From Sphyrna mokarran (Eukaryota), in contig JAGIQG010000013.1 of NCBI GenBank assembly GCA_024679065.1, positions 43,400,001-43,464,000 of the forward strand: a DNA stretch of 64,000 nucleotides. The letters run 5' to 3'. This document shows positions 4,683-63,072 of this stretch, piece by piece. The notes under the pieces were generated by a model, which was not told the origin of the DNA, made no database searches, and was given only the letters and a program-made list of their open reading frames with translations. The stretch's first letter is position 1; each line of letters starts with the position of its first letter. Position numbers and translations under genes: made by a program.

Positions 4683-5161
4683 TATTAAGTTCATTTTTGT
4701 GAGGCTCTTCCATCCCTGATACAAAGGCAAACACCAACTTTTATCCAGTTCAAAAGCTCTTTATTTGTTTTACATATGCAAGCTGGCAAACCTTTCCTAT
4801 GTAACTTCCACTCAACGGTGGGAATCAGTTCGCAAAAGCCTGCTGAGCAAAAAGGCCCTTTTGTACGATTTACAATTCCAGCAGGCAGATTTCAGCAAGC
4901 ACACATCGTCTGATACAATCAAGGACAAGCTCAGGAAAGACCATTCTGTTCCTAGCAAAAACAGCACCCCAGCTGTCTTGAGCAAAAACAAGTATAGATG
5001 TGTGAGAAAGAACATTTAAATAAAAATGCACCATGACTGTGCTCTGGAAGTTGGAACCTTGGTTTGTCAGTTTGCTCTCATGAGCTGTTTTTCTGTTAAT
5101 CTTGCAAACCATAGATTATCATTTGAGACTCTACAGTGGATATTAATTCTTTAATATCTCA
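4681..5161 (-). mobile_element. Putative 3' LTR of an endogenous retrovirus
   Basis: Minus strand: polypurine tract AAAAGCAGGGAA directly followed by TGAGATATTAA, ending ...TTAATACA (TG...CA with imperfect terminal IR); AATAAA at ~4760; directly downstream of env. Confidence 0.6.
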
Positions 5162-6321: not shown

Positions 6322-6728
6322 TAATGTAGAGATGCCGGTGTTGGACTGGGGTAGTAAGAACTCAGTAAGAATCTAGCAACACTAATTTTAAATCCAACCG
6401 ATTTATTTCATAGTAAATTTGCGAGCTTTCGACTTTCTGTCTTTGTCAGGCAAATGCTGTGCTGTCTGGAGAAAATACACAATTCTCTAACCAATGCTCA
6501 GGATTCCCTTCACACACATTGTTAGCCACTTTAACACTTGAATAGCAGGTTAGATGTAAGGATTCGCATTCTAATCAGCAATCTGTGACTGTCTATGTTG
6601 ATATGTGTGCTATTGCAGACCAGAACACTGCATTTGCCTGACGAAGACAGAAAGTCAAAAGCTCGCAAATTTACTATCAAATAAATCGGTTGGATTTAAA
6701 ATCGGTGTTGCTAGATTCTTACTGAGTT
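6322..6728 (+). mobile_element. Penelope-like element (PLE) 3' end with inverted 5' pLTR (fold-back), hammerhead-bearing
   Basis: 6458-6728 is the reverse complement of the PLE 3' UTR at 57569-57836; ~100-bp inverted arms; 13-bp TSD cttgccagt(a/g)tta at 6309-6321 and 6729-6741. Confidence 0.85.
6632..6670 (+). ncRNA. Minimal type I hammerhead ribozyme motif (GAAA mutated to AAAA); mirror copy at 6417-6455 on minus strand (CUGACGA mutated to CUGACAA)
   Basis: AUUUGC-CUGACGA-A-GAC(AGAAA)GUC-AAAA-GC-UC-GCAAAU: 6-bp stem I, stem II, palindromic AGCU stem III; the two arms carry different CpG mutations so their consensus core is intact. Confidence 0.75.
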
Positions 6729-7542
6729 CTTGCCAGTGTTACCCAAATCTTGTGAAAATAATTTAAAAATGAAGGGTATGGCAAGGCAGCATCCAGTCTG
6801 ATTCAGAGGGTTGCCAGGGAGTGGGATGGAGCCAGTGAACATCAAGTTTATGATGGGGACTGAAGATGCCGGCTTCAGACTTTCGAATATTTGATTTGAG
6901 AAGAGTTCTGCTCATTCAGGATACACATCCTGATAATTTAGAGAAAGTGGAATGGCCAAGATGGTGGTGAAAATCCAGAACAGGATGCTTAACAGATATT
7001 GTGCTCTAGCATACTGTCAGCAAGAAACAGCAACTGGAAGTTGTGTATTTAGGATATTTGCAGGGTCTTGCCTGCTACTTCATCAAAAACAAAATCAAGT
7101 TAGTTAAACACAAGATGTTTTTAATAAATCTGTGCTGATATTACTTAATTAATATTCATTCATCTGCATGATCTTTGATTTTGTCCGAACTATGGCAAGA
7201 ACTGCAACCTGATTGGAAGGAATGAAATGTGAAGTTCAGGAAAGATGGGGTTGAATTTGTGCAGCCACTACATGTTCAAGGACTTCCGAGAGGCACGGAA
7301 GATTGGAGATGGGTGATAGTTTGTCAGGACCGAGTGGTAAAGTGGTGTTTTTTCTTGACAGCAGAGTATAACAACTTGGATTTATTTGAACTAAGATTTA
7401 AGGGATTCATTTCTTTGCAATAACTCCCCAATTGTAAATCTTACCAGGTTCCAGAGATTTAACCATATGGCAAGAAAGAACACTTTCACTGGAGAATTCA
7501 GAAAATTTATTAAAAGGTAACAAGTTAGAAAGATTAAAAAAA

Positions 7543-16167: not shown

Positions 16168-16351
16168 TGATGTGGAGATGCCGGCATTGGGCTGGGGTGA
16201 ACACAATGAGAAGCCTGACAACATCAGGTTTAAGTCAAACCAATTTATTTGATAGTAAACTCACACGCGTTTACTGTCAAATATCTTTATAATATCTTTA
16301 TAATAGTGTCGATATCTTTAGATATCTAATATCTTTAGATATCGACACTAT
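16168..16351. mobile_element. Truncated PLE pLTR with short fold-back and palindromic filler
   Basis: Begins with the family tail tgatgtggagatgccggcattgggctgggg; IR tatttgatagtaaac/gtttactgtcaaata; then IR atagtgtcgatatct/agatatcgacactat. Confidence 0.65.
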
Positions 16352-20481: not shown

Positions 20482-20709
20482 CCATGATGTAGAGATGCCG
20501 GCATTGGACTGGGATAAACTCAGTAAGAGGTCTGACAACACCAATTTTAAATCCAACCGATTTATTTGATAGTAATCTGCGAGCTTTCGGCCTTTGTAGC
20601 CTTCGTCAGGCGAAGGTGTATTCGCCTGACGAAGGCTACAAAGGCCAAAAGCTTGCAAGTTTTCTATCAAATAAATCAGTTGGATTTAAAATTGGTGTTG
20701 TCAGACCTC
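20482..20709. mobile_element. PLE-derived hairpin element with two head-to-head hammerhead motifs
   Basis: ~89-bp inverted arms (20526-20614 / 20621-20710) around a 6-nt loop; perfect 13-bp TSD tatctgatgtaag at 20469-20481 and 20710-20722. Confidence 0.85.
20578..20614 (-). ncRNA. Minimal hammerhead ribozyme motif with intact catalytic core
   Basis: Minus strand UUCGC-CUGACGA-A-GGC(UACAAAG)GCC-GAAA-GC-UC-GCAG; stem I is weak; mirror copy 20621-20657 has GAAA>AAAA. Confidence 0.75.
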
Positions 20710-22226
20710 TATCTGATGTAAGGCATATTTAAATCCTGATCTAATTTGTAGGCTTTCCATCACCTTTTCATCAGAGTTACAGCAGCAGTACGTAAAAAGC
20801 ATTAAGGATTTATACCCCCTTATTCATCAAGGGATTTTTAAAAAAGATCATTTTAGCAAAACTGACATAATTACATTTTTATGTGGTTTTGTTTACATTT
20901 ATTGTGGTACCCTCCCCATTTTTTCATAGACGTCCTCATTCTCATGGTTTCCATTTTTATGGGATTGTTCACTCTTCATTCTTTTACCTGTTGAGATAAA
21001 TATATATATAACTATGGTGAACTTCTCTTCAAAAAAATGGGAGGAAAGTCATATTTACATAAACCTGCACAATGAACTTGGATTATAAGATGTGATGTGA
21101 CTTTTTCACTCGGCAAGCTTCAGAATATTGATGTATGACCATATTGCTTCAGCACAAAGCAATAAGATTTAAATCACATCTATTTTACCCTATTATTATT
21201 TACTTATATTCTTCAAAACCATCTATACACTCAGATTAAAGGGTAAACAGGAGCCCTCTAGAAACACTGCTTTCGATTTAATAGATGGTTCTTGTAGAGC
21301 ATCCTTCATAGACACTCCCAGTTACTGAAACAAAAAGGATGACCAATTAAAAACCAATTTAAAATGGCATTTCCTAATGAAGTCATTGATGGCATAGTTA
21401 TGATTATTATGAACTCACCATGTGGAAAATCAGAGGCAAACTCTAGAAAATATAGAATGGGAGGCCTGACAAACAGACACACGTTTTATCCTGGTCTGCT
21501 GAAGAGATAAGTGAGTAATACTATGGGACAACCTTTTGCTATGCTGGTAGACTTTATGCAGAGGCAAACTAACTTCTATAAGAAGTACAGAAGCGAATCA
21601 TGTAAGAAAGCAACTGCTACTGCTCAAGTAGACCCAAATTCATGACCTGGATTCAAATGATAAATGCTCTGTAGATATTATCAGTCTACCTTCCTGTTGT
21701 AGAGAACTAGAATGACTTTATTGGACCATATTGATCAGAAGGAATGAAGACAGACTCCCTTTTTATTCCCTATTTTGACTGGAGTGTTGCCACCAAATAA
21801 AAGCATGTATTTTTAACTGCAAGAAAAACAAATGATCATAAACTAGACTGAAAGCACCTTGACAGTGATACCATTAGATATCTCTCTGCAAGATCCATTC
21901 TACCTCTCCTGCCCATCAAAGCGTAGTATGTTTAAACTGAGGCCAATTCCTGTTGTTCTATATATTACCACTTTCACTTTGATATGAAAAAGTTTCTAAC
22001 ATGCATCAAAATGAAAATCGTGGTATAATTTGGAAGTCAGTTCCTGATCTGACTCCTGAAACCCAATGAGGTTTGGGGGTGTGAGAAACAGTCTGCAAGG
22101 AATTCTCACACTAGTTAAAGTTCACAGTGTTGCGTGTCTGTGACTTATTGCAATGTCACATTTGAAAAACATGCAGACATTAATTAAACTAAGTATATGA
22201 TATTTTTCAGTGCACTTCTAACACTG

Positions 22227-26689: not shown

Positions 26690-27275
26690 TGGGGTGGCAT
26701 ATTGGCACAGTGGTTAACACTGCTGCCTCACAGTGCCAGGGGTCTGGTTCAATCCAGCCTTGGCTGACTGTGTGGAGTTTACATGTTCTTCCTGTGTCTG
26801 TGTAGGTTTTCTCCGGGTGCTCTTGTTTTTTCCCCACACTGTAAGAAGTCTTACAATACCAGGTTAAAGTCCAACAGGTTTATTTGATAGGAAACACCAC
26901 TAGCTTCCGGAATGCTGTTCCTTTGTCAGGTGAGTGGAGAGTTCCGAAAGTTAGTGGTGTTTACTATCAAATAAATCTGTTGGATTTTAACCTGATGTTG
27001 TGAGACTTCTTACTATGTTTACCCCAGTCCAACGCCAGCATCTCCACACATTCTTCCCACACTCCTAAGAAGTGCAGCTTAGGTGGACTGACCATGCTAA
27101 ATTGCCCCCTAGTGTCCAAAGATACGTAGGTTAGGGGAATAGTGCTGGTAAATATGTAGGGTTATGTGGATAGGGCAGGGGAGAGAGCCTGGGTAAGTAT
27201 GCACTGACATTCTTGGAGAGTCGGTACAGACTTGATGGGATAAATAGCTTCCTTCTGCACTATCTGGATTCTATG
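26690..27275 (+). mobile_element. V-SINE/HE1-like SINE interrupted by a PLE hairpin
   Basis: ggcacagtggttaacactgctgcctcacag head, V-domain core, CR1-like tail. Confidence 0.85.
26841..27050. mobile_element. PLE-derived hairpin element (second subfamily) with degenerate hammerhead
   Basis: Inverted arms gtaagaagtcttacaa.../...ttgtgagacttcttac; tail ccccagtccaacgccagcatctccac; 13-bp TSD with 2 mismatches (26828-26840 / 27051-27063). Confidence 0.8.
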
Positions 27276-28744: not shown

Positions 28745-29044
28745 GAGCAGCATGGTTGCACAGTGGTTAGCACTGCTGCCTCACAGAGAGCGACATGAGT
28801 TCAATTCCTGGTTTGGGTCACTGTCTGTGCGGAGTCTGCACGTTCCCTGTGTCTGCATGAATTTCCTCTGGGTGCTCCAGTTTCCTTCCACTGTCTGAGA
28901 GACGTATTGGTTAAGTGCATTGGTCGTGGTAAATTCTCTCTTAGTGTAACCGAACAGGGGGCGAAGTGTGGTGACTAGGGGATTTTCATTGTAACTTTAT
29001 TGCAATGTTAATATGTCTACTTGTGATACAAATAAATACACTTT
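28745..29044 (+). mobile_element. V-SINE/HE1-like SINE (second tail type)
   Basis: Head, core and aataaa tail as at 56447. Confidence 0.85.
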
Positions 29045-29554
29045 AATCTTATTTGTTTTGATCTCAGGCAAACACTTATAAAACAAGTTAATTGCTAGCT
29101 GCAACAATTAACTGTTTGATCAGGAAAATTGGAGACCTCTGTATTTGCATTTGTGCTTATCTACATCCTGACAAACATTCAGTTTAAACTCCTTCAGCAA
29201 AACAACACTTGCTCTGTCTGCCGCAGAATTGACCGCCTACATATGAGCTCAAACCTTGCTTTGGGCTTTATCATATGTAGAAGGTAAAGGAGATAAACAT
29301 CTTTTAGTTTGTTCAGAAGGCTGAAACTTTCTTCATATGTTTCAATTAAATGAATAAAGGGGATTAGAGAGAGGTTTAGAAGAGTTGTTAGTAACTTTTA
29401 GAGCTGGCAGAAAGAAAAATGAAATATCAGAACTAAACATTAACCTTTAAAGTAATAGTTGGAATGCCATAAGTTTAATTTGCTGTGTTTGTTTTGTAAC
29501 TTACGCATTTGTTTTGTAACATAGAACAATCTGCTTACCAAACAGCATTCTTAC

Positions 29555-30293: not shown

Positions 30294-32960
30294 ACAAAGA
30301 ACAAAGAACAACACAGCATAGGAAACAGAACACACGGCTCTACAAGTCCGCGCCATCCATTTTAGCACTCAGTGAGTGCCTTATTCAAGTCTTTTGTCGA
30401 CCAATGACACTTTTGTCTACCTCTAGTGGACTCCACAACAAAGGAGTGCAAATTTAGGGAATTATATGTGCGTTAGATTAAGAGAGATCCAATTTAGGAA
30501 CAAATTATTGACACAATCAGCCTAAAAAGCACATTTTTGGGATGTGGGAGGAAACCGGACCACCTGGAGAAAATCCACGCAAGTATGGGGAGAACATACA
30601 AACTCCCACAGATGTTGACCCAAGCCAGAGATCCGACCCGAGTCCCTGTAACTGCATAGCAAACAGTGATAGTCATTGAACTGTCATGTTGCTTGTCAAT
30701 TGGTCTAGTTTAAGCATACACTAATGGACATAAAGCACTAGGCAACTCTTGAAGCAACATCCAAGAGCATCTCTCGCCCAACCCACCACGTGTATGCCCT
30801 TTGTTGACCAACAATGCGGACCAAATCGCCTGTGGGTGTAAAAAGGAGACATTAATAAACATACAACATTCTTTCATATCCCTCCATCTCCAGTCTGCTC
30901 GTGTGCTTATCTAGATAAGTCTTAAACAGCCCTAGCATGTCTATTTCAACCATTCAACTCGGTAGTGCATTCCAGGCCCCCACAACCCTCTGTGAAGAAA
31001 CATCCCTTTAACATCTGAGTTATACCTCGCCCCTCTCACATTGAGTCTGTGATCCCTCGTGATTTTTGCATCTAAGCTAGGAAAAAGCTTCCCACTGTTC
31101 GCTCTATCTATACTCTTCATAATCTTACATACCTCTATTAGGTCTCCCCTCATTTTCCATCTTTCCAGGGAGAACAATCCCAATTTGCCCAATCTCTCTC
31201 ATAGCTAAGACTCTCCATACCAGGCAGCTTCCTGGTAAATCTCCTCTGCACTCTCTCCAAGGCCTCCATGTCCTTCCAATAGTGCGGTGACCAAAACTGG
31301 ATGCAGTACTCTAAATGTGGTCGAACCAATGCTTTATACAACTGAACATTAGACACCAACTTTTATACTCTACACTCCTTCCAATAAAGGCAAGCATACC
31401 ATATGCCTTCTTCACCACCTTCCCCACCTGTACTGTCACCTTCAAAAACTTGTGAACTTGCACACCTAGGTCCCCTCTGTGTTTTATACTCTTAATGATG
31501 CTACTATTTATTGTATAGCCTCTCCTACATTAATTCTTCCAAAATGCATCACCTTGCATTTATCTGGAGTAAATTCCATGTGCCATTTCACGGCCCAATT
31601 TACCAGCCTATCTATATCCTGCTGTATCGTCTGACACTGTTCGTTACTATCAGCAAATCCAGCCATCTTCGTGTCATCTGCAAACTTGCTGATCACAAGA
31701 GTTACTCTCTCTTCTAAATCATTTATGTATATTACAAACAGTAGAGGTCCCTGTATGGAGCCCTGTGGAATACCACTAGTCACAGACCTCCAGTTAGAAA
31801 ACGACCCTTCCACTGCTACCCTCTGTCTCCTGTGGCCAAGCCTGTTCTCAACCCATCTCGCCATCTGTCTTTGTATCCCATGAGCCTTAACCTTTTTCAC
31901 CAACCTGCCATGAGGGAGTTTGTCAAATTCCTTACCGAAATCCACATAGACGACATCCATGGCTCTTCCTTCATCCACCATTTTTGTTACCTTCTCAAAA
32001 AATTCCACCAGATTTGTAAGGCATGACCTCCCTCTTACAGAAGCATGTTGCCTGTCACTAATGAGATTGTTCTGTTCTAAATGCGCATATATCCTATCTC
32101 TAAAAATCCTCACCAACAATTTTCCTACCATTAATGTGAAGCTCATCTGCCTATAATTACCCAGGTTATCCCTGCTACCCTTTTTAAACAACAGTACCAC
32201 ATTCGCTACTCTTCAATCCTCTGGGACATCACCTGTGTCCAAAGAAGAGACAAAGATTTCTGTCAGAGTCCCAGCAGTTTCATCTCTTGTCTCCCTGAGC
32301 AGTGTAGGATAGATGCCATCAGGCCCCGGAGATTTGTTAGTTTTAACGTTCCCTAAAAAACCTAACACTTCCTCCCTTGTAATGGAGATTTTCTCCAACG
32401 GGTCAACAACTCCCTCTAAGACGCTCCCAGACAACAAGTCCCTCTCCTTTGTGAATACTGACACAAAGTATTCATTCAAGATCTCCCCTATTCCCTTGGG
32501 CTCTAAACATAATTCCCCTCCTTTGTCCCTGAGGTCTGATTTTTTTCCTCAACAACTCTTTTGCTCCTAACATATGAATAAAATGCCTTTGGATTATCCT
32601 TAATCTTATCTGCCAAGACCATTTCATGACCTCTTTTCACCCTTCTAACTCCCCATTTGAATTCTCACCTATTCTCTCTGTATTCTTCCAGAGCTCTCTC
32701 TGTTCTCAGTTGCCTGGACCTAACATACGTCTTTCTTTTCTTTCTGATCATGTCCTCAATATCCCTAGTTAGCCACTCTCTAATCTTGCCTTTCCTATTC
32801 TTCCTCTTTACAGGCACATGGCTGTCCTGCAGCCTTATCAGATGTCCCTTAAAAGACTCCCATGTACCATATGTGGACTTACCCCTGAACATCCTCTCCC
32901 AATCAATGGCCACAATTCCTTCCTAATCCAGTTATAGCTAGCCTTTCCCCAATTTAGCAC
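30294..32960 (-). mobile_element. CR1 LINE, ~2.7 kb, frameshifted ORF2 (RT), SINE-like domain in 3' UTR
   Basis: ORFs 32665-32913, 32213-32479 (KSPGPDGIYP), 31508-32200 ([13 protein letters not shown]), 31150-31359, 30941-31192. Confidence 0.95.
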
Positions 32961-35290: not shown

Positions 35291-35730
35291 TGAGATGGAG
35301 GTGCCCGAGTTGGACGGGGCGTGGGCACAGTAAGCAGTCTCACAACAACACGTCAAAGTCTCACAGGTTTATTTGAAATCACTAGCTTTTCGAGCGCTGC
35401 CCCTTCATCAGGTGGATGGAGGTTGGTTCACAAGCATGGAATACATGACACAATTGCAAGATAATTACATATTAGAATGTGAAGAACCGGCGGAAGGCAA
35501 GTCTTTACAGGTAACGTGTGATTATCCTTCTCTCCATGCACACTGTACTTGTAAAGGCTTGATTACCTGTAAAGATTCATATTGCAACTATTCTTCACAT
35601 TCTAATATGTAATTATTTTGCGGTTGTGTCTGTCTATATACGCTGTGAACTAACCTCCAGTCACCCGATGAAGAAGCGGCAAAAGCTCGTGATTCCAAAC
35701 AAACCTGTTGGATTTTAACTTTGTAAGAAG
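35291..35730. mobile_element. PLE-derived long fold-back (~200-bp arms) in intron 2 of the IgV gene, hammerhead-bearing
   Basis: Family tail gatggaggtgcccgagttggacgggg; minus-strand CAC-CUGAUGA-A-GGGGCAGCGCUC-GAAAA-GC-UA-GUG at ~35379-35414; degenerate mirror at ~35660-35695. Confidence 0.75.
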
Positions 35731-36278
35731 TCCCACAGCACCAAGTCTAGACTGTAAGAAATGTGAGGTAAGACAGATTTTTAGATGTCATTTAGTTTCG
35801 TCGACGAGCTTTTTAGGGAAATATCCCAGGATGGAAGAGGTTGTGAGTGGGAGAATTACAGCTCAGCTTCTCCCCACTGGAAGTATTTATTTTTAAAACT
35901 GGATTGTAATGAATTAAGGAACGAGCTCTAGAGGTAAAGTCCATGATCTTATCTGGTCTATCCAGTAATCTAAGTTCTGTGAAAGATGGGTATGATGTCA
36001 AAGATGCATATGCAACCTATGAGGCTCAATCAACTGCGTTTCAAAAATGTTAAAAACATGTTGCTCCAAAGATTTAATTGGAGGGGAATAAGGTAACACT
36101 GCCCTTAGTAATATTGAATCTGCATATCTACAATCTTCAGCTACTGACAAGTTACAATAATGTTCTCCCACTAGGTTTATTTTATGAAAATGAATACAAA
36201 TTCGTTTCAAGGACTGCAATGATTAATTAGTGCTTTAATTTCATCTGCATTTAACACCGAATAGGTAAGCGTACTCAC

Positions 36279-36626
36279 CAATCACCTTCACTATGGTGTG
36301 CTGGCTAAACTCCTCTCCACTATGAGATGTGATGGTGCAGAAATATGTCCCCGAATCGTTCAGCGTGACGTTTTGGAGAGAGAGAGAGCCATTAGGATAG
36401 ATTTGTGCCTTGAGACTGTAGTTGCTGAACCAATGTGGCATCTGGCTACCGTTATTCGGTATGAACTCAACAATTAAGCGGTGGGTGCTGGAATTCGTAT
36501 ACATCCACTGTATGGTGTGTACCTGTTCAGTCGCCACCCTGACTGGCATTGCCAGGAAGATGTTCCCATTCACCGTTCCATTTACAACGTTGGTATTGTT
36601 TCCAGTGGCCGCTGCCTGCAGCACAG
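36279..36626 (-). CDS. IgV membrane gene: V-set Ig domain exon (VSTM5/HepaCAM/CEACAM-N/CD2-type)
   Basis: Acceptor ctctttcag|, donor G|GTGAGT, 348 nt phase 1-1; IQW (C-strand Trp), NGSLSLQNVTLNDSGTYFC (E-F strands); no B-strand Cys; 8 sequons. Confidence 0.92.
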
Positions 36627-36725
36627 CTGAAAGAGATCGGAGGTAACAGAATCAGGCTACAGATTCTTTATAATGTAGACAAGGCGAGACAACAAGAATG
36701 GGCAGTTGTCCCAGACGGGAATTAC

Positions 36726-39784: not shown

Positions 39785-40050
39785 GAGACAGTAGCACAGT
39801 GGTTAGTACTGCTGCCTCACAGCACCAGGGTCCAGGTTTGATTCCTGCTTAAGTTCACTGTGTGGAGTTGGAATGTTTGCACTGTGTCTGCGTGGGTTTC
39901 CTCTGTGTGTTCCAGTTTCCTCCCACAGTCCAAAAGACATGATGGTTAGGTGCATTGGTCATGCTACATTATCCCTCAGTGTACCTGAACAAGTGCCAGA
40001 GTGTGACAAATAGGGGATTTGCACAGTAACTTCATTGCAGTGTTAGTCAT
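39785..40050 (+). mobile_element. V-SINE/HE1-like SINE (second tail type)
   Basis: Head, core and tail homologous to the other copies. Confidence 0.85.
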
Positions 40051-40159: not shown

Positions 40160-40925
40160 AAAACACACACCACTGGAAAACTCAACAGGTCTGGAGGCAT
40201 TTTTAAGGAGAGAAAAGAGCTGACATTCCGAATCCAGATGATCCTTTGTCAAAGCTAAAACACGTAGAAAGTGGGAGACGTTTATACTGCAGGGAGAGAG
40301 AATGAAAGATGAATCATAGTCTTAGAAACCAAGGGAAAAGACTGCTAATAGCTGTTGACAGAGATAACAAAGAATGTGAATGGCCAAATGGCAGAGAAGT
40401 TGTAAGCTATGCCAGATGAAGGTGGGGGTGGGGATGGAGATTGTTGGGGGGGGGGAGGGAATGGGACAGAGGTACAATGTAGAAAAGGTAAGGGATAGGG
40501 GATGAAATGGGGGGGGGGGCGGCAAGAGTGGGGAGAGAAAAATGAAGAATGAGAACAGTAAAAATTAAATAAAATGGAATGAAAACAAAAGGGGCTGAAG
40601 TTGGGTAGAGCAAATCATTTGAGACTGGAAGACTGTAAAATGCCTAGCTGGAAGATGGGATGCTGTTCCTCTGGTTTGCATTGAGTTTCACTGGAACATT
40701 GCAGCAAGTCAAGGATAGACATGTAGTCATAGGAGCAGGATTGTGTGTTAAAATGACAAGCAACTAGAAGGCCAGGGTCCTGATTGTGCACAGACCCAAG
40801 ATGCTCAGCAAAGTGATTACTCAATCTACGCTTGGTATCACCGATATAGAGAAGACCACATTGGGAGCAGTGAATGCAAATTGAAAGAGGTGCAAGTGAA
40901 ACAAGTGGAATGAATGTTTTGGACC
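40160..40925 (-). mobile_element. Penelope-like element (second family), degenerate GIY-YIG and 3' pLTR with eroded hammerhead
   Basis: CIHCSQCGLLYIGDTKRRLSNHFAEH...VACHFN...EEQHPIFQLG; minus-strand AGCU-UUGACAA-A-GGAUC(AUCUG)GAUUC-GGAA-UG-UC-AGCU at ~40218-40256. Confidence 0.8.
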
Positions 40926-40964
40926 TGAGATGGTAAAAGTTTTTTGAATAATTGTAAGTAAATA

Positions 40965-41500
40965 AATTTGATTTGGTTTTGATTTGATTTATTTTCATCA
41001 TATGTATTGGTATACAGCGAAAAGTATTGTTTCTTGCAAGCTATATAGACAAAGCACATCATAGAATACATAGGGAAGAAGAGATGGGAAAATGCAGTGT
41101 TATAGTTATTAAAGATCAACTTAGTATAAGGTAGGTTCATTCAAGAGTCAGATGGCAGCAGGTAAGAAGCTGTTTTTGAGCTGGTTGGTACATGATCTCA
41201 GACTTTTGAATCATTTTCCTGGTGGAAAAGAATATGTCCAGAGTACATTGGGTCCTTGTTTAAGCTGGTTATTTTTCTGAGGCACCGGAAGTGTAAACAG
41301 AGTAATTGGATGGGAGGCTGGTTTGAGTGATTAACTGAGCTTCGTTCATGACCCTTTTTAATTTCTTGCAGTTTTTGGGCCAAGCAGGAGCCATACCAAG
41401 TTGTGATACAACTAGAAAGAATACTTTCTATAGTGCATCTGTAAAAGTTGGTGAGAATCACAGCAGACATGACAAATTTCCTTAGCTTCTTGAGAAAGTA
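40965..41500 (-). mobile_element. Rex1/Babar-type LINE 3' portion
   Basis: ILTNFYRCTIESILSSCITTWYGSC and RCLRKITSLNKDP..GH motifs. Confidence 0.85.
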
Positions 41501-44104: not shown

Positions 44105-45560
44105 GATTTGCAGCCACATTTGTTAACAATGTGAAGATAGTTAGGAAAGCAAGTTGTGAGGAGGATACAAAGAGTTTGCAAAGGATAAGGATAAGTTAAG
44201 CGAATAGGCAAACATTCAGCACGTGGTGTAGGTTGAGGGAACATGTGAAGTTGTCCACTTTGGGAAGAACAGAAAAGCAGAACATTATTTAATGAATAGA
44301 GATTGCAAAATGTTATGGTACCGTGGTATCTGGGTGTCCTTGTACATCATAGAGTTATAGAATTCCTACAGTACAGAAGGTGGTCATTCTGCCCATCAGC
44401 TCTGCAGCACCTCTCAGACAGTAATTTGCCCACACCCAGCTCTTCCCCATTCCCTTAACTTCATGCATTTACCCCACTAATCCCCCTAGCTTATGCATAT
44501 TGGGACACACAGGGACAATTTAGTATGGCCAATCCACCTAATCTACACATCTTTGGACACGGATTACAAAAAGTCAGCATGCAGGAACAGCAAGTAGTCA
44601 GGGAAGTAAATGGAGTGTTGAATTTTATTGCCATGGGAATGGAGGAAGTGAGGAAGCCTTGTTACGACTGTATAAGGCATTTATGAGACCACACCTATAA
44701 TGCTGTGTGCAGTTTTGGTCACCTCACAAAGAACAAAACAGCACGGGAAACAGGCCCTTTGGCCCAACGGGTCCGCGCTGCCGCCACCCCGATGTTCCCA
44801 CCTCTTCCCGTGGTCCCTGTCAATGTTTATAGATCTATGGATTAAAACCAAATTTGAGCCAATTTAGGGAGAATTTGTTTTGCAATTAGCCTAAGAGCAC
44901 ATCTTTGGGATGTGGGAGGAAACCAGAGCACCTGGAGAAAACCCATGCAACACAGGGAGAATGCGCAAACTCCCACAGACACAGGCTCAAATCCATGTAT
45001 CTGCACAGCACAGCGATAGTCACTGAGCTGTCGTGTTTCCCATCAAATGGTCCAGGTCAAGCGTACACTAACGATGTGAAACACTAGGATACTCTCGAAA
45101 AAGATTCAAGAGCAGCCCTCTCATGACCCATCGCATGTATGCCCCTTGTTAGACAACAAGGTGGACCAAAGCACCTGTAGGATAAAAACAAGTACATCAA
45201 TATCATTGTCTACTTACACACTTCCCAGGGACTCCCAAGACTCATGATCCCTATTTTAAATCAGTTTTCTATATCCCTCCATTCCCATTCTGTTCATGTG
45301 CCCATCTAAGCATTTCTTAACTTAAGAAATGAAGGAAGTTCAGAGAAACTTCATTTAGTTAATTTCTGGGATGAAAGGGTTGTTTTATGAGAAAAGATTG
45401 AACATATTGAGCTATATTTAATGAAGTTAAGACTGAAAGATGATCTTATTGAAATGTGTAAAATTCTGAGGGGTCTTGATTGGATAGATGCAGAGAGGAC
45501 ATTTTGCTTTGTAATTGATTCTTGACTAGGGAAACCATTTCACAATAAGAGGCCTCCTAT
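44105..45560 (+). mobile_element. Old CR1 fragment with nested SINE (~44350-44560, -) and nested CR1/SINE composite 3' end (44727-45320, -)
   Basis: CR1 motifs (LYKAFMRPHL..AVQFWSP) resume on both sides of the inserts. Confidence 0.7.
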
Positions 45561-53767: not shown

Positions 53768-53889
53768 TATTTTATGTTTTAAAAATGAAACATTGTGAAG
53801 TGTACATACGGGAAACCTCATTAGTAGAAAAATGGCAACAGTTTGAGATTTGCACGGACCCTTTGACAAAAATGTGGAGTGATGGAGCT

Positions 53890-54610
53890 TCTGGTAAATC
53901 TTTGCTGTACTCCCTCCATTCCTCCACATCCTTCTGGTAGTGTGGCAAACAGAATTGAACACTATATTCCAAGTGCAGCCTAACTAAGGTTCTATAAAGC
54001 TGCAACGTGACTTGCCAATTTTGAAACTCAATGCCCGGGCCGATGAAGGCAAGCATGCTGTATTCCTTCTTGACTACCTTTTCAACTTTTATTGCCACTT
54101 TCAGTGACCTGTGTACCTGTACACCCAGATCCCTCTGACTATCAATACTTTTAAGAGTTTTGCATTTACTGTATATTTCCTATCTGTATTAGACCTTCCA
54201 AAATGCATTACTTCACATTTGTCTGGATTAAACTCCAACTGCCATTTCTCCGTCCAAACCTCCAACTGATCTATATCCTGCTGTATTCTCTGATGGTCCT
54301 CGTCACTATCCGCAAATCCACCAAACTTTGTATCATCTGCAAATTTACTAATTAAATTAAACTTTACTTTTCCTCCAAATCATTTATATATATTACAAAC
54401 AGCAAAGGTCCCAGCACTGATCCCTGAGGAACACCACTTGTCACAGCCTTCCATTCAGAAACACATCCCTCCATTGCTATACTCTGCCTTTTATGATCAA
54501 ACCAGTTCGTATCCACCTTGTTATCTCACCTCTGATCACCATATGACTTCACCTTCTATGCCAGTCTGCCATGAGAGACCTTGCCAAAGGCCTTACTGAA
54601 ATCCATGTTC
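53890..54610 (-). mobile_element. CR1 RT fragment
   Basis: LQLYRTLVRLHLEYSVQF; GVPQGSVLG and KFADD regions. Confidence 0.85.
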
Positions 54611-55344: not shown

Positions 55345-56080
55345 GTATGTAGAATCATCGAATAATATAGACTGTAAGGAGACCATTTGGTCCATCAATG
55401 TATTGGCTCTTTGAAAGAACAATGCAATTCATCCTGTTCTCCTGCTTTATGTCCATAGCTCTGAAAATATTTTCCATTTGAATATTAATCCAATACCGTT
55501 AGAAAATTTTCATTGAATCTGCTTCCAGCACCTTTTCAGGCAGTCTATTTCCAGATTGTAATATAGAACAATACAGCACAAACAGGCTCTTCGGCCATGA
55601 GTTGCACCGATCACATCTATATCTACCAATCCACTGACCTATTTATAACCCCCTATCCCATTCGTTTCCATATACTCATCCAGAAGTCTTTTAAAAGACC
55701 CCAGCGAGTTTGCCTCTACCACCTCCGATGGCAGCCGATTCCATTCACTCACCACCCTCTGAGTGAAAAACTTACCCCTAACGTCCCCTCTGTATTTGCT
55801 TCCCTGCAACTTAAATCTGTGTCCCCTCGTAGTGATTATTTCAGCTTGGAGAAATAGTCTCTGAGAATCCACCCTATCTATTCCTCTCAACATTTTATAA
55901 ACCTCTATCAGGTCACCTCTCAACCTACGTCTCTCCAGTGAGAAGAGTCCCAGCTCCCTCAACCTATCTTTGTAAGGCCTCCCTCCCAATCCAGGCAGCA
56001 TCCTTGTAAATCTCCTCTGCACTCTCTCAATAGCCTCTACATCCTTCCTATAGTGAGGCGACCAGAACTGCGCACAATAA
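55345..56080 (-). mobile_element. Two CR1 3' ends (younger copy 55562-56080)
   Basis: ORF 55639-56022 QRRFTRMLPG...LFSLERRRLRGDLIEVYK. Confidence 0.9.
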
Positions 56081-56446
56081 ACAACTCTCTACAGAGTTTA
56101 GTTTTTCCTCATATAACCTCTGGTTTTTTTTTTGCCGACAAATTTGGGCCCACTGGTTACTAAGTTGCCACTGAAAACAATTTTTCCTCTATTTTATCAA
56201 AATACTTTGCATTAAATATAAAAATATGTTTTGGGTCTTTATGGTTCTTAATTTGTCTGCCTTCCTCAGTTCATTGGATATCTTCCACATTGCCCACAGT
56301 ATTGCCGTTGAGAGAGCTGGACTTCAGTGTCACAGACACCACCATTTCTATACCATAAAATACATTTTTCAGAGATTTTCACTCATGGGTACCCGGCCAT
56401 GCTTCTCTTGCAAATTCTCAAAGAATATTTCATTTCCTCTCTTTTT

Positions 56447-56750
56447 GGGCAGCATGGGAGGCACAGTGGTTAGCACAATTCCCTCACAGAGTCAGAGACC
56501 CGGGTTTGATCCCCCAGCTGAGATCACTGTCTATGTGGAGTTTGCACATTCTCCCTGTGTCTGTGTGGGTTTCCTTCAGGTGCTCCGGCTTGCTCCCACA
56601 TCCAAAGATGTCCAGGTTAAGTGCATTGGCTTTGCTAAAGTTTTCTTCAGTGAACCTGAATAGGTGCCAGAGTGTGGTAACTAGGAGATTTTCATAGTAA
56701 CTTCATTGCAGTGTGAATGTGAACCTACTTGTAACTAATAAATAACATTT
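56447..56750 (+). mobile_element. V-SINE/HE1-like SINE (second tail type)
   Basis: Head, core and aataaataa tail. Confidence 0.85.
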
Positions 56751-56984
56751 TTCTTATGTCTTTCCAATGCTTTTCTCATTTATGAGTACGACTGCCTATG
56801 TGTCCACTTGAAGACAGTTTGTTAAAGTACCACAAGTTCTCAAGAGTAGGCCATTATAACTACTTGACAGTGAATACTATAAGAAAAACTTACCTGCTGC
56901 TGCTGCTCCAGCTTGCTGTTGAAATCTTCAGCCATTCTAGTTTTATTAAAAAAGCTGCACTTCAAATTTTTATCTGGCTTTTCA

Positions 56985-57400
56985 GAAACTAAAAAAGGTC
57001 ATGAACAAAGCCAGTCAATCACATAAATCATTGACTCCATCTACAATTCCCATTGTCTCAGAAAAACAACCAGCATAATTAAGGACCCCACACAGCCTGG
57101 AAATTCTCACTTTCACCTTCTTCAGTCAGGAAAAAGATACAAAAGTCTGAGATCACTTAAAAACCAACTCAAGGACAGCTTCTTCCCTGCTGCCGTCAGA
57201 CCTTTGAATTGACCTATGTTATATTAAATTGACCTTTCTCTACACCCTAGCTATGAGTGTAACATTACATTCTGCACGCTCCTTTCCTTCTCTATAAATG
57301 GTATGCTTTATCCGTATAGCGCGCAAGAAACAATAATTTTCATCATTTACTAATGCATGTGACAACAACAGATCAAGTCAAATAATGAATCAAATTAAAA
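56985..57400 (+). mobile_element. Rex1/Babar-type LINE 3' end
   Basis: Homologous to 2020-2612 and 4410-4682 (IIKDPTQPG..LLQSGKRYKSLRS..QLKDSFFP). Confidence 0.8.
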
Positions 57401-57568
57401 TCAAGTATACTCCTGCAATATATGGGATATTGTTCAATCATCTCCACTGGGTATGCAAATAAACTGACGGCGTGACTGGCAGCCAGTTCAGCTCTGACTG
57501 AGATGATGACGGACAGCAAAGACAATTGAGCAGCGCAATATTGGGGAGGAATGGAAATTGGCATTATT

Positions 57569-58658
57569 CAGTAAGAATTTAGCAACACCAATTATTAATC
57601 CAACCGATTTATTTGATAGTAAAATAGCGAGCTTTCAACACTCCCGTGTCTTCATCAGGCAAGTGCAGTGTTCTGGTCTGCAATAGCACACATCAGCACA
57701 GACAGTCAGAGATTGCTGATTAGAATGCGAATCCTTACATCCAACCTGCTATTTAAGTGTTAAAGTGGCTAACAATGTGTGTGAAGGGGATCCTGAGCAT
57801 TGTTAGAGAATTGTGTATTTTCTCCAGACAGCACAGTAAGTGAGGTTTTTTGCTAACCCAGGCAAGTTACGGGGGTTACAGATAGTGTGTCATGAAGCCA
57901 AGATCCCTGTTAAGACCGTCCTCATGTGTGCGGAGCTTGGCTATCAGTCTCTGCTCAGCGACTCTGCGCTGTCGTGTATCACGAAAGCCCCCTTGAAGAA
58001 CATTTACCCGCAGGTCGGAGGCCGAATGCCCATGACTGCTGAAGTGTTCACCCACAGGAAGGGAACTGTTTTGCCTGGTGATTGTTGAGCGATGCTCATT
58101 CATCCGCTGTCGTAGTGTTTGCATGGTCTCCCCAATATACCATGCTTCGGGACATCCTTTCTTGCAACGTATTAGGTAGACAACGTTGGCCGAGTTGCAA
58201 GAGTATGTACCGTGCACCTGGTGAATGGTATCCTCACGTTTGATGATGTCGTCCATGTCTATGATCCGGCATGTCTTGCAGAGGTTGCTGTGGCAGGGTT
58301 GTGTGGTATTGTGGTCACTGTTCTCCTGAAGGTTGGGTAGTTTGCTGCGAACAATGATCTGTTTGAGGTTGTGCGGTTGTCTGAAAGCAAGAAGTGGGGG
58401 GGTGGGGATGGCCCTAGCGAGATGTTCATCGTCATCAATGACATGTTGAAGACTCCGGAGAAGATGTCGTAGCTTCTCCGCTCCGGGGAAGTACTGGACA
58501 ACAAAGGGTACTCTGTCCACCTTGTCCCGTGTTCGTCTTCTGAGGAGATCAGTGCGGTTTATCGTTGTGGCACGTTGGAACTGTCGATCGATGAGTCGAG
58601 CGCCATATCCTGTTCTCACGAGTGCATCCTTCAGTGTCTGGAGGTGTCTGTCACGATC
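57569..58658 (-). mobile_element. Penelope-like retroelement, 5'-truncated: RT-thumb/linker + GIY-YIG endonuclease + 3' pLTR with hammerhead
   Basis: Uninterrupted frame to 57876: PCHSNLCKTC linker, NVVYLIRC..C...YIGET..LRQRMNEH, VGEHF...H, RRVAEQRLI, GLNRD; perfect 13-bp TSD aattggcattatt at 57556-57568 and 58659-58671. Confidence 0.95.
57625..57663 (-). ncRNA. Minimal hammerhead ribozyme motif in the PLE 3' pLTR
   Basis: UUGC-CUGAUGA-A-GACAC(GGGA)GUGUU-GAAA-GC-UC-GCUA: intact core, 5-bp stem II with GNRA loop. Confidence 0.8.
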
Positions 58659-59827
58659 AATTGGCATTATTGACAGTGTAATGGCAGCAAATGACCACCA
58701 GATGGTGGAAGAATCGTACTCCTTCTGTATTCGTCCTAATAACAGTTCACAAGATAGTTACAAATCAGGAGAATATTAGGCTCTGATTATTCATCAACAC
58801 CTCTTGTTATCAGCATGACTGCCAGTGTGGTAGAAGATGAACTAGGATGGACTGTGGTCTTTTTTCAATGCAGTCACTTCTATATTCCTTCAAAGGAATA
58901 TCAGAAAAATGGAATATTTTGTTTGATTCCTTGATCACAAAGATCAAGATCATATTCCCTTACCAGTGACTACACCCTTTCCTTGGCAGCTCATGCTAGT
59001 TGAAGCAGGCTGTGCAAAAGCTCAGATTCCCTTTTGACCAAAGCAAATTTTCAAACATCATTATCTTATCCACAAAAGCGGTGACTTCTACCTTTCCAAC
59101 ATCTCTTGTTGCTGCCCCACTGCATCCTCAGTGCTGCTGAAATGCTGATCAATATTAAAATGAAGTTTAGGTTCAGTTTCACCACTGTCGCAGGCTCTTA
59201 AATCTCTACACACTCCAATTTATCTAAACACCTGCTGCCCCTCAGTAAATCCCACTTGTAAATTACACCTCCAATGACTCCATTGAACCACTCTGGCCCC
59301 CTGTCCCCAGTCCTCATTCTTGTTTTCAGATTTTGGAAAACCCCATTGCTCTCCAGTCATATGTTTCTGGACCTTGAGTGTCCCTCCTGTCCTACACTCC
59401 GTCCCAGCTGGTGTGCTGCACTTGTGGAACTCACTTCCTCTGTAAATCTCGCCTGTAAATCAAGCTCTTTTAGCTTTTTCATCTCTCAAAAAGTTTGGTA
59501 TCCACTCCTGTCGTCTTTTGTGTACTGTCAGGGAACAATTTTCTATATTAAAGGTTCTTTGTGGTTGGAATCAACCCACCCCTCTGGTGGGTTCTGAAGC
59601 TGTGTGGAGGAGTGGGGGGGGGTCAGGGGGTGTGGTTGGTAAGGTTGGTGAAATTGTATGGGTGGGATTCTGCCCAAGATCCCACTGGCCTTGACCCATA
59701 CCTAATTTCACAGTGGAACAGATAGTGCCTGAGATGAGAAGCCCACCCCATGTCTCTATTTCAACCCTTAATTTGTTTGATACCTTGTATCATTGTCTAT
59801 CAAGCAGCCTCAACCAATAGTGTCTTT

Positions 59828-62593
59828 AGAACATAGAACATAGAACAATACAGCACAGAACAGGCCCTTCGGCCTTCGATGTTGTGCCGACCAAAATAAA
59901 AAGCAATGCCCTCCTAACTAAACCATTCCCTTCTCATCCATATACTTATCAACTAACCTCTTAAACGCCACCAAACTTGGCGCATCTACAACAGCTGCAG
60001 GCAGGGCATTCCACTCCCTAATCACTCTTTGAGTAAAGAACTACCTCTGATATCCGTCCTATAACTCATACCCCTTAATTTAAAGCTGTGTCCCCTCGTG
60101 CTAGCTTTCTCCATCCTAGGAAAAAGGCTATCACTGTCCACCCTATCTAAACCTCTAATCATCTTATATGCTTCAATAAGATCCCCCCTTAGCTGCCTCC
60201 TTTCTAACGAAAACAACCTCAAATCCTTCAACCTCTCTTCATAGGACCTGCCCTCCATACCAGGCAACATCCTGGTAAACCTCCTCTGTACCCTCTCCAA
60301 TGCCTCCACATCTTTCTTATAATGTGGGGACCAGAACTGCACACAATACTCCAAGTGCGGCCGCACTAGAGTTTTGTACAGTTGCAACATGATGCTGCGG
60401 CTCCTAAATTCAATCCCCTACCAATAAAAGCTAAGACTCCATATGCCTTCTTAACAACTTTATCCACTTGACTGCCTCCTTTCAGGGATCTATTGACACA
60501 TACACCAAGATCCTTCTGTTCCTCAACACTATTAAGAGCCCTACCATTAGCCCTATACTCTACACATTTATTGTTCCTGCCAAAGTGCATTACTCACACT
60601 TTTCCACATTAAACTCCATTTGCCACCTCTCGGCCCAGCTCTGCAACTTGTCCAAGTCACTCTGTAAACTAAACACCCCTCTTCACTATCTACCACACCA
60701 CCAACTTTAGTATCATCTGCAAATTTACTGATCCATCCCTCAATACCCTCATCCAGATCATTTATAAAAATTACAAACAGCAGGGGCCCCAAAACAGACC
60801 CCTGAGGCATACCACTTGTCACCGAACTCACGATGAATATCTCCCATCAACCACCACCCTCTGTCTTCTATCTGCCAGCCAATTCCTAATCCAATTAGCT
60901 AAATCACCCTCTATTCCACGCATCTGCATTTTCTGTAGAAGTCTTCCATGGGCCACCTTATCAAACGCCTTACTAAAGTCCATATATACTACATCAACCG
61001 CCTTACCCCCATCCACCTCTTTGGTCACTTTCTCAAAAAAATCAATGAGGTTAGTAAGGCATGACCTACCCTTCACGAAACCATGCTGACTATCCCCAAT
61101 CAATTCATTTCTCTCTAAATAACTATAAATCCTATCCCTAATAATTCTCTCCAATACCGTGCCCACCACAGAAGTAAGACTCACTGGCCTATAATTCCCA
61201 GGAAGGTCTCTCTTCCCCTTCTTAAACAATGGGACCACATTCGCCATCCTCCAGTCCTCCTGAACCACACCCGTAACCAACGAGGACCTGAAGATCAGAG
61301 CCAGAGGCTCTGCAATCTCCTCTCTTGCCTCCCAGAGAATCCTAGGGTAAATCCCGTCCGGACCAGGGGACTTATCCAACTTCAAACCCTCGAGAATTTC
61401 TAGCACATCCTCCCTATCTACTACAATACTTCCCAATTTGCAACCTGTACCTCAGTGTTCTCCATAGCTACATTTCCAGCACTCTGCGTGAATACCGAAG
61501 AGAAATATTTATTCAGTGCCTCACCAATCTCTTCAGGCTCCACGCACAACTTCCCACTGCTGTCTATGACTGGCCCTAATCTTGCCCTAACCAATCTTCT
61601 ATTCTTAACATATCGAAAGAAAGCTGTAGGATTCTCCTTAATCCTATCAGCCAACATCTTCTCGTGTCCCCTCTTAGCTCTCCTCAATTCACTTTTTACC
61701 TCCTCCCTGGCTAATCTATAGCTATCCATTGCACTATCTGAGCCTTCAAGCCTCATCCTGACATAAGCCTCCTTTTTCTTCTTAACCAGCAAATCAACTT
61801 TTTTCGTACACCAAGGCTCTCTTACTAGTCCATTTCCTCCCTGCCTGACAGGGACATACTTATCAAGGACTCGCAGCAGCTGCTCCTTGAATAAGCACCA
61901 CATTCCAGATGTTCCCAGTCCCTGTAGTGCCCTAGTCCAATCTATGCACCCTAATTCTCTCCTGATGGCCTCATAATTACCCTTCCCCCAGCTATAACTA
62001 CTGCCCCCAGCTTCATGCCTATCCCTGTCCATCAATAAGGTGAACGTAACCGAATTGTGGTCACTATCACCAAAATGTTCACTAACTTCCAAGCCTAACA
62101 CCTGGTCTGGCTCATTGCCCAGCACCAAATCCAATGTAGCCTCACCTCTAGTTGGCCTATCTACATACTGAGTCAAAAAACCTTCCTGCCCACTCTGTAC
62201 GAAAACTGACCCCTCTAACGAGCTAGAGCTATAGCTATTCCAATCAATATTAGCAAAGTTAAAGTCCCCCATCACAATTACCCTACTACTTTCACTCCTA
62301 ATCAGAATTGACTTCGCAATCCTTTCCTCAACCTCTCTAGAACTATGAGGAGGTCTGTAAAAGACTCCCAACAGGGTGACCTCTCCTCTCCTGTTTCTAA
62401 TCTCAGCCCATACTACCTCAACAGACAAGTCCTCATCAAACTTCTTTTCAATCACCGTGATACAGTCTTTGACCAGTAACGCCACTCCTCCCCCCCTTCT
62501 ACCCCCTTCTCTACTCCGACTAAAGCATTTGTACCCCGGAACCTGCAACATCCATTCCTGTCCCTGCTCTACCCAAGTCTCTGAAATGGCCAC
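59828..62593 (-). mobile_element. Relatively young CR1 LINE, 5'-truncated in the endonuclease, ORF2 with several frameshifts
   Basis: EN (VAISETW, GVFYRPP, MGDFN, SDHN), RT ([29 protein letters not shown]), (AGAACAT)n tail; 4-bp cttt at both ends. Confidence 0.97.
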
Positions 62594-62797
62594 TGCAGGC
62601 ACTTTCTTATCCACTGCAGGCAAATAAGTAGAAATATTGGTTCCTATCATTTACCATAGTTAAGTGATATATCTCAGACTTTCTAATTTTCCTTATTGTC
62701 TTTCTCTTTCCCATGTCTCTGGTTTCCTGTATTTCTTGATCTGTCTATCTTTCAGTCCCGCTGTTTTGCTCTCCTTCCAACTCCCATTCTACCTTTG

Positions 62798-63072
62798 AAT
62801 GGCATAGTGGTTAGCACTGCTGCTTCACAGTGCCAGGAACCTGGGTTTAATTCCTGATTTGGGTCAATGTCTGCATGAAGCTTGCACATCCTTTGTGTGT
62901 ATTGCCTTCCTGTTCTGGTTTCCTCCCACAGTCCGAAAGATTTGCTGGTTGGGTGCATTGGCACTGGTAAATTCTGCCTCTGAACCTGAACAGGTGCCAG
63001 AGTGTGGCGAAAAGGAGATTTTCACAGTAACTTCATTGTAATGTAAATGTAAGCCTACTTGTGACAATAAAA
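62798..63072 (+). mobile_element. V-SINE/HE1-like SINE (second tail type); duplicated copy starts at ~63972
   Basis: Head, core and tail homology. Confidence 0.85.

What the first reader, a model, noticed from the sequence alone, without database searches (positions are those of the whole stretch)
57556..58671. Coding parent of the hairpin family: PLE GIY-YIG fragment whose 3' pLTR holds an intact hammerhead core
Seen: ~260 uninterrupted codons (thumb/linker/GIY-YIG), then a 3' UTR whose reverse complement is found at 6458-6728 and whose end matches the arms at 16200, 20526, 26841 and 35330. This links all the hairpins to a Penelope-like element within one window. Stem II differs between copies (GACAC/GUGUU, GAC/GUC, GGC/GCC, GGAA/UUCC) while pairing and core are kept, which is covariation supporting a selected RNA structure in the source elements.
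Basis: partly seen in the sequence, partly recalled or inferred. Interest (0 to 1): 0.7.

Follow-up and report, generated by a model that had tools for sequence, protein, structure and literature searches.

The report
Young Penelope retroelement copy with hammerhead
This is a shortened, recent copy of a Penelope-type jumping gene carrying a known miniature ribozyme motif; it is a relative, not the parent, of the nearby hairpins, and its many sister copies show a fixed pattern of ends that likely records the enzyme copying two RNA templates from both sides of one DNA cut.

Summary
Real, and of a known kind. 57569-58658(-) is a 5'-truncated copy of a very young Penelope-like element (Neptune-type linker finger, telomerase-like RT) inside a 13-bp target duplication. 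Its 3' end holds a minimal type-I hammerhead, published for these elements. The core is intact, but stem I keeps only 2 bp. Paired stem changes across subfamilies are real; only 2 of 9 window copies keep the full core. The hairpins are 62-91% identical relatives from older subfamilies, not its offspring.

The sister copies add more. All 63 scorable young head-to-head insertions have one long-tail and one short-tail end. Target duplications peak at 13 bp inside a symmetric site. The two arms differ at 18.5% of shared polymorphic sites against 0.37% elsewhere, which argues against fold-back self-priming. About 37% of copies are lost within 23 nt just 5' of the ribozyme. Likely mechanism: a protein dimer primes two cDNAs, one from each strand of the cut, on non-identical templates.

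The scan noted such stumps before on other DNA of this genome and raised two-template priming on single loci; the multi-locus test is new here.

The parts
57556..57568 (+). target-site duplication, left copy (13 bp)
   Evidence: identical to 58659-58671
57569..57875 (-). 3' UTR / pseudo-LTR of the element; ends at the 'short' end (unit position 2988, about 39 nt before the next ATG of a tandem unit)
   Evidence: 97-99% identical in sister copies; end class
57608..57613 (-). AATAAA hexamer downstream of the hammerhead, also in the older subfamilies; possible polyadenylation signal (inferred, untested)
   Evidence: sequence; profile consensus of 41 sampled ends
57625..57662 (-). minimal type-I hammerhead: CUGAUGA 57658-57652, extra A 57651, stem II GACAC/GUGUU 57650-57637, GAAA 57636-57633, palindromic AGCU, predicted cut after C17 (57629), stem I 2 bp
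   Evidence: layout as in PMC4209133
57661..57683 (-). zone just 5' of the hammerhead where sister copies are most often truncated (unit 2874-2896)
   Evidence: nested exact counts 2086, 1517, 1309, 1219, 1108 against 4808 to 4134 downstream; rates
57876..58658 (-). 3' part of the single ORF (thumb end, linker, GIY-YIG endonuclease), 260 codons plus stop
58062..58184 (-). GIY-YIG core (VVY..C..C..YIG) with the two cysteines of the CCHH finger
   Evidence: Pfam PF01541 at residues 159-199; motif
58269..58295 (-). linker C-x4-C-xx-C finger (Neptune/Nematis type)
   Evidence: motif search, also in 78 of 83 homologues with a C-terminal YIG
58659..58671 (+). target-site duplication, right copy (13 bp), joined directly to the 5' truncation point
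6325..6738 (.). head-to-head insertion of a close subfamily: long end left, short end right, degenerate 11-13 bp duplication
16171..16273 (-). single long-end arm of an older subfamily; partner not found
20487..20715 (.). head-to-head mini insertion, long end left, short end right, duplication of 13-16 bp with 1 mismatch
26836..27048 (.). head-to-head mini insertion of an old subfamily, short end left, long end right, 13-bp duplication with 2 mismatches
35295..35731 (.). decayed head-to-head insertion of an old subfamily, long end left, short end right; no duplication found

Best explanation
This is a 5'-truncated copy of a young Penelope-like retroelement, and it and the window's hairpins are insertion products of one element class, likely made by a protein dimer that cuts both DNA strands 13 bases apart and primes one cDNA from each cut end, one at a 'short' and one at a 'long' start site, on templates that are often not identical. 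Shown: element identity, duplication lengths, symmetric target preference, the long/short rule, arm differences, the truncation zone. Inferred: the dimer; 13-nt 3' overhangs (each duplication copy is followed by the reverse complement of an element 3' end); joining of the two cDNA ends by end-joining with 1-5 nt overlap or filler. The focal copy would be a case where only the short-site cDNA survived; the hairpins are cases where both stopped early, mostly just past the hammerhead. The hammerhead is a conserved RNA structure of the source elements that likely cleaves weakly or only as a dimer, and is not needed to cut the templates that were copied.
For: Full ORF of 893 aa with RVT_1 and GIY-YIG; fold model pLDDT 91 whose six best PDB matches are telomerase RTs. 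One long (3025-3028) and one short (2985-2998) outer end in 44 of 44 scorable inverted insertions, 3 more with one end cut; 19 of 19 further ones; 13 of 14 scorable pairs in 464 kb sampled without regard to age, 2 unscorable; four apparent solos carry a 10-20 nt inverted arm of the complementary type. Duplications 12-14 bp in 39 of the 41 that reach 12 bp, mode 13. In the 17 clean 13-bp sites, position -3 is G/T in 17 and +3 is A/C in 17, -4 is T in 12, +2 is C in 13. Arms differ at 164 of 885 shared polymorphic sites (18.5%; random pairs 29.9%) but at 0.37% of other sites, 3 expected if one arm copied the other; 35 of 37 well-sampled pairs differ; the 10 youngest pairs still differ at 30 of 171. 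The short arm reaches further 5' in 18 of 38. In vitro, a Poseidon PLE cuts and extends both strands, starts at two internal sites that define the tail, and is predicted to be a dimer (PMC11167929). 37 of 68 upstream repeats read through the hammerhead and only 2 end at its cut site.
Against: Arms are more alike than random pairs (ratio 0.62-0.68), share a rare allele in 8 of 47 pairs against 0.46% at random, and agree best near the 3' end (6 of 29 differ just after the cut site against 58%). 8 of 19 short-gap pairs have near-symmetric junctions, as self-priming would give. Linkage is weak everywhere (r2 0.35 falling to 0.08), so single arms may be mosaics and 'one arm, one template' is too simple. 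PMC11167929 saw no difference in start site between strands in vitro. No dimer, cleavage or transcript end was shown here; the complex predictor was not available.
Confidence: 0.65

Rival explanations
1. Fold-back self-priming: one cDNA folds on itself (or an antisense template is self-primed) and copies its own sequence to make the second arm.
For: Proposed for palindromic junctions in Adineta (PMC3846280, passages). Near-symmetric junctions in 8 of 19 short-gap pairs; rare alleles shared by both arms in 8 of 47; 1-4 nt match to the target at the short end (mean 2.0).
Against: Arms differ at 18.5% of shared polymorphic sites, also in the youngest pairs; two of the mini hairpins differ at the A/T variant after the cut site (L248, L255); either arm can be the longer (20 against 18); long short-end arms occur with no or only a 10-16 nt long-end arm, including the focal copy.
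Confidence: 0.1
2. Twin priming on one multimeric RNA: both cut ends prime on different units of a single tandem transcript whose units differ.
For: Tandem units exist (99 exact tail-to-ORF junctions); arms are closer than random; 5' and 3' repeats of one element are identical in the hammerhead in only 8 of 29, so units do differ.
Against: Both arms exceed 1 kb in 29 of 47 pairs, while only 7 of 68 upstream units reach beyond the 650 nt examined.
Confidence: 0.15
3. The hairpins are a non-autonomous family that moves as a unit (MITE- or retrozyme-like), with this copy as coding parent.
For: Many mini hairpins of similar size: 12 of 27 head-to-head pairs among the first 100 listed matches have a gap of 45 nt or less. 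Three short tandem arrays of the tail region exist elsewhere.
Against: All 19 fetched pairs have different junctions and their own duplications; sizes run continuously from about 150 bp to 5.9 kb; the focal copy has no RT and is younger than the hairpins.
Confidence: 0.05
4. Arms were identical at insertion and diverged by gene conversion from dispersed copies.
For: Low linkage between sites is what conversion would give.
Against: No significant rise with age (Spearman 0.26, p 0.14, n 34); pairs with 7 private differences in 13,103 bases already differ at 17.5% of shared sites.
Confidence: 0.05

Closest known systems
EN+ Penelope-like elements, Neptune clade (Craig et al. 2021, PMC8557442; passages and section 10 read)
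   Same: Single ORF, telomerase-like RT, C-terminal GIY-YIG with CCHH, CX2-5CxxC linker, pseudo-LTRs, frequent inverted 5'-truncated copy, tail often at one end only, hammerhead in the pLTR.
   Different: Here the one-sided tail is a strict rule (63 of 63 young pairs), duplications are nearly fixed at 13 bp in a symmetric non-microsatellite site, whereas that paper describes variable duplications and links the linker finger to microsatellite targeting.
Minimal type-I hammerheads of metazoan PLEs (Cervera and de la Pena 2014, PMC4209133; parts 1-2 of 4 read)
   Same: Core CUGANGA..GAAA, extra base after A9 (A in 39 of 42), G at 10.1, palindromic 15.2-16.2, no helix III, high variability between families, pairs on opposite strands 100-700 bp apart already mentioned.
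   Different: The youngest cohort has G10.1-U11.1 and a 2-bp stem I (GCUU/GCUA in 138 of 156 motifs), like the short helix I of D. virilis Penelope.
Poseidon of Anolis (PAc) in vitro (Frangieh et al. 2024, PMC11167929; parts 1-2 of 4 read)
   Same: Two internal RT start sites bounding a 30-40 nt tail; both strands cut and extended; hammerhead cleavage dispensable.
   Different: Here the start sites lie 29-43 nt before and at the ATG rather than inside the ORF, and each insertion uses exactly one of each.
Adineta vaga Penelope insertions (Arkhipova et al. 2013, PMC3846280; passages read)
   Same: Head-to-head inverted pLTRs inside one duplication, optional tail on one side.
   Different: Explained there by self-priming; arm polymorphisms here argue against that for this family.
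Non-LTR retrozymes (bioRxiv 10.64898/2026.07.22.740005; parts 1-3 of 5 read)
   Same: Short pLTR-derived units; three tandem arrays of 142-166 nt units were found elsewhere in this genome.
   Different: The window's repeats are inverted single insertions, not tandem arrays; the three arrays lack a complete hammerhead.

Membership tests
EN+ Penelope-like elements | single ORF with telomerase-related RT followed by GIY-YIG endonuclease | tested here: met
   893-aa ORF in sister copy L033; best fold matches are TERTs; focal fragment 99% identical to residues 634-893
EN+ Penelope-like elements | CCHH finger with two Cys between GIY and YIG | tested here: met
   VVYLIRCKKGCPEAWYIG and downstream His residues
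EN+ Penelope-like elements | pseudo-LTRs from partial tandems, inverted 5'-truncated copies, one-sided tail, target duplication | tested here: met
   28 of 40 consecutively listed loci have an inverted arm
Neptune clade | CX2-5CxxC linker finger before a C-terminal endonuclease (excludes Penelope/Poseidon, Hydra, Naiad/Chlamys) | tested here: met
   definitions from PMC8557442
Neptune clade | RT phylogeny grouping with named Neptune rather than Nematis elements | not testable with these tools
   no clade-labelled reference sequences among 130 homologues; vertebrate PLEs were Neptune or Poseidon only in the 2026 preprint, which favours Neptune
minimal type-I hammerhead of PLEs | conserved core, base after A9, palindromic 15.2-16.2, NUH triplet | tested here: met
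   N17 is U, C or A in 40 of 42
minimal type-I hammerhead of PLEs | helix I of 4-5 bp and G10.1-C11.1 | tested here: not met
   focal copy: 2 bp and G-U; met in older copies (G-C in 25 of 42)
minimal type-I hammerhead of PLEs | compensatory changes in helices I and II | tested here: met
   independent events not counted, no R-scape run
minimal type-I hammerhead of PLEs | self-cleavage as a dimer | not testable with these tools
   needs an assay; only contigs, no raw reads, were offered
non-LTR retrozyme | two or more tandem units, each with a complete hammerhead | tested here: not met
   window copies are single or inverted; the three arrays found lack a whole motif

The most novel reading that the evidence does not exclude
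Penelope-like elements integrate by obligatory double priming: a dimer cuts a symmetric site with a 13-nt stagger, one subunit always starts at the short site and the other at the long site near the 5' end of the messenger RNA, both first run to an RNA end just upstream of the hammerhead (the mini hairpins are double 'strong-stop' products), and long copies arise by retrovirus-like transfer between the terminal repeats of two co-bound RNAs, which also makes the family recombine freely.
Probability: 0.3. Interest if true: 0.75.

Novelty: new member of a known kind. Interest (0 to 1): 0.42.

Why it matters
The element and its ribozyme are of published kinds. The value lies in the family: how Penelope-like elements make their inverted ends and one-sided tail is stated as unresolved in PMC8557442 and PMC11167929. 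This genome holds thousands of near-identical copies, several with whole 893-aa frames, and gives hard numbers (strict long/short pairing, 13-bp stagger, symmetric site, non-identical arms, a truncation zone beside the ribozyme) that an in vitro assay of the published type can test directly. It also explains a large share of the short palindromes in this genome (52 ends in 464 kb).

Tried and rejected
Rfam scan: no hammerhead family hit. PDB sequence search with the full protein: no match. Idea that the 5' repeat keeps a better ribozyme than the 3' repeat: rejected, stem I of 4 bp or more in 15 against 12 of 29 elements (mis-parsed 10 rows and was redone; 16 of the 40 fetched loci gave no pair). 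Idea that the hammerhead palindrome is a strong RNA dimer signal: cofold energies within the range of shuffles for all 6 sequences. Idea that cleaved RNA is the main template: no pile-up at the cut site, 2 of 68. Idea of one sharp stop at unit 2879: loss is spread over 2874-2896, although 10 of 38 arms end at 2877-2880. Idea of a recombination hot spot in that zone: not seen, r2 0.25 across it against 0.00-0.15 for upstream pairs; and upstream repeats of tandem copies show no pile-up there (6 of 68), which counts against the novel case. RNA runs: only contigs, covering the element in three runs; they cannot show starts, ends or strand, and DNA may be in them. One search's short-end match counts failed for 25 of 41 and were redone. 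Literature searches (open-access library only, listings seen) found no paper on two-template double priming, a symmetric 13-bp site or a shark Neptune family; Repbase entries, subscription papers (Arkhipova 2006, Pyatkov 2004) and all supplements were not seen and may hold some of this.

Full report
Setting. The window lies in a 2.77-Gb genome; the closest named homologues of the protein are from sharks. Positions called 'unit' count from the ATG of the intact copy in L033 (stop 2682, hammerhead C3 2899, predicted cut after 2928, next ATG at about 3027).

The observation. 58658-57879(-) is an open frame of 260 codons with a GIY-YIG hit. The 3' part matches 6457-6725 in reverse at 91% and the other arms at 62-83%. 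A minimal hammerhead stands at 57662-57625(-) with all core bases, but with a G-U first pair in stem II and only 2 bp of stem I; it is not the predicted fold of this copy. Across 42 motifs parsed from the window and 400 kb of other DNA (5 pieces beside the window, 35 at round coordinates), stems I and II show paired changes (for example A-U, C-G and G-C at the third pair of stem II), and N17 obeys the NUH rule in 40; the full core survives in 16, most losses being CpG decay. The pair-count tool on 33 of them agrees: 85% paired, 45 cells changed on both sides against 18 in shuffles, 25-49% paired when slid. Copies are related, so the number of independent changes is smaller and was not counted.

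What it is. A protein search of the genome gave 73,820 candidates; all 147 scored were 99-100% identical, and the young 35-nt hammerhead occurs 2,086 times exactly. Sister copies hold an 893-aa frame with RVT_1 and GIY-YIG; its model (pLDDT 91) best matches telomerase RTs. It has the CCHH cysteines and a C-x4-C-xx-C linker, which by PMC8557442 excludes Penelope/Poseidon and Hydra and points to Neptune or Nematis; a labelled tree could not be made. Polymorphic sites in the frame are 22 synonymous to 10 non-synonymous (the last 260 codons of one arm per locus were selected for identity), so several source lineages were active. The focal copy lacks the RT and is younger than the hairpins: it is a sibling product, not their parent.

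Anatomy of the family. I mapped an intact unit on 90 loci (8 duplicates dropped; 12 clusters ran off the fetched piece and were not scored). Of 40 loci taken in listed order, 28 have an inverted arm. In 44 of 44 complete head-to-head insertions one outer end is long (unit 3025-3028) and the other short (2985-2998); three more have one end cut. Nineteen further pairs, picked from a listing for being opposite-strand neighbours, all obey the rule, as do 13 of 14 scorable pairs of any age, including four in the window; one decayed pair looks short-short and two could not be scored. Four apparent solos have a 10-20 nt inverted arm of the other type. Duplications of 12 bp or more were found in 41 of 47: 11 of 12 bp, 17 of 13, 11 of 14, one each of 15 and 16. 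The 17 clean 13-bp sites have mirror-image flanks: G/T at -3 in 17, A/C at +3 in 17, T at -4 in 12, C at +2 in 13 (the 41-site table uses a fitted register and is partly circular). The short end scatters over 29-43 nt before the ATG with a mean 2.0-nt match to the target; the long end clusters at the ATG with 1.2 nt. Central junctions are all different, with short overlaps or filler.

Are the arms copies of each other? No. They differ at 164 of 885 shared polymorphic sites, random pairs at 29.9% (lowest of 1,000 shuffles 24.8%), other sites at 0.37%. The ten youngest pairs differ at 30 of 171. Against a simple two-random-RNA picture: arms share a rare allele in 8 of 47 pairs (0.46% at random), agree more near the 3' end, and linkage along the unit decays within about 100 nt. 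A small pool of templates, or switching between two bound RNAs, would fit; this is not resolved.

Where copies stop. Exact counts fall 2086, 1517, 1309, 1219, 1108 as the pattern is extended 5' from the hammerhead, a loss of 2.0-2.1% per base over unit 2874-2896 against 1.0, 0.64 further up and 0.79 downstream (mutation and one variant at 2894 are included). This gives the mini hairpins with two back-to-back hammerheads. Ten of 38 arms end at 2877-2880. An RNA 5' end there, with the AATAAA at 2942-2947 ending transcripts before both start sites, would force initiation in the upstream repeat and a later transfer; this is inference, and two tests did not support it.

The hammerhead's role. Within the young family it is the most variable stretch (2.9% against 0.5-0.65%), at N7, loop II and outer stem I, with the core nearly fixed. 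Older young-family copies keep stem I through A or G variants; the youngest cohort has broken it in 138 of 156 motifs yet spread to thousands of copies, and cDNAs read through the cut site. This matches PMC11167929, where ribozyme mutants still insert, and the low activity in PMC4209133.

Mechanism, committed at 0.65: a dimer cuts a symmetric site leaving 13-nt 3' overhangs, each primes a cDNA, one at the short and one at the long site, on templates that often differ, and the two cDNA ends are joined. End types, duplication, site and arm differences are shown; dimer, overhangs and joining are inferred.

Comparison with what is known. The element class, the inverted copy, the one-sided tail, the two start sites and the ribozyme are published (PMC8557442, PMC3846280, PMC11167929, PMC4209133; PMC2377424 passages confirm the 34-bp repeat and inverted ends in Drosophila). 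I did not find the strict pairing, the symmetric 13-bp site or the arm test in the open-access searches. Earlier notes of this scan reached the same class for stumps in this genome and raised two-template priming on single loci; I saw them after my own tests, and they are not independent support.

Verdict. New member of a known kind; interest 0.42, for the testable mechanism rather than for the locus.

Noticed in passing
window 36241-36651 (-): Exon-like stretch with an immunoglobulin V-set domain (Pfam E 6e-13, weak 2B4 hit), followed by a GT donor; probably a CD2/SLAM- or CEACAM-like host gene (label recalled, not tested). The focal insertion lies about 21 kb 5' of it on the same strand.
   Followed up: partly
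window 5301-5771 (-): Fragment of an endogenous retroviral envelope gene (Pfam TLV_coat, E 3e-10). Observed only.
   Followed up: no
L121 (C749:36342474-36343934), L122 (C905:25587214-25587935), L123 (C771:27293386-27293783): Tandem arrays of 142-166 nt units made of the repeat end plus the first 25-60 nt of the ORF; L121 has 7 units and a short inverted part with long and short outer ends. They resemble retrozyme arrays but lack a whole hammerhead.
   Followed up: partly
L053, L054, L038: Compound insertions: repeated inverted units with a period near 2.6 kb (L053) and a double palindrome with the same junction twice inside one 13-bp duplication (L054).
   Followed up: no
L033, L080, L255; L041, L050, L258; L057, L074, L078, L085; L069, L241: Independent insertions at nearly the same target sequence in different copies of host repeats, showing real sequence preference.
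   Followed up: partly
window 60022-62650 (-), 31047-32548 (-), 53772-54599, 55639-56088: CR1-type LINE pieces (recognised from recalled motifs, not scanned); the one at 60022-62650 has long open endonuclease and RT stretches.
   Followed up: no
window 56984-57396, 2086-2351, 4406-4684, 40965-41366: A different repeat family (68-77% identical copies) sits just left of the focal insertion; 40615-41040(-) translates to a decayed GIY-YIG-like stretch that gave no Pfam hit and no tblastn match to this family, possibly a second PLE family.
   Followed up: no
window 13564-14157 and 44726-45320; 28747-29058, 39791-40045, 56449-56763, 62602-63071: Other dispersed SINE-like repeats with several copies.
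   Followed up: no
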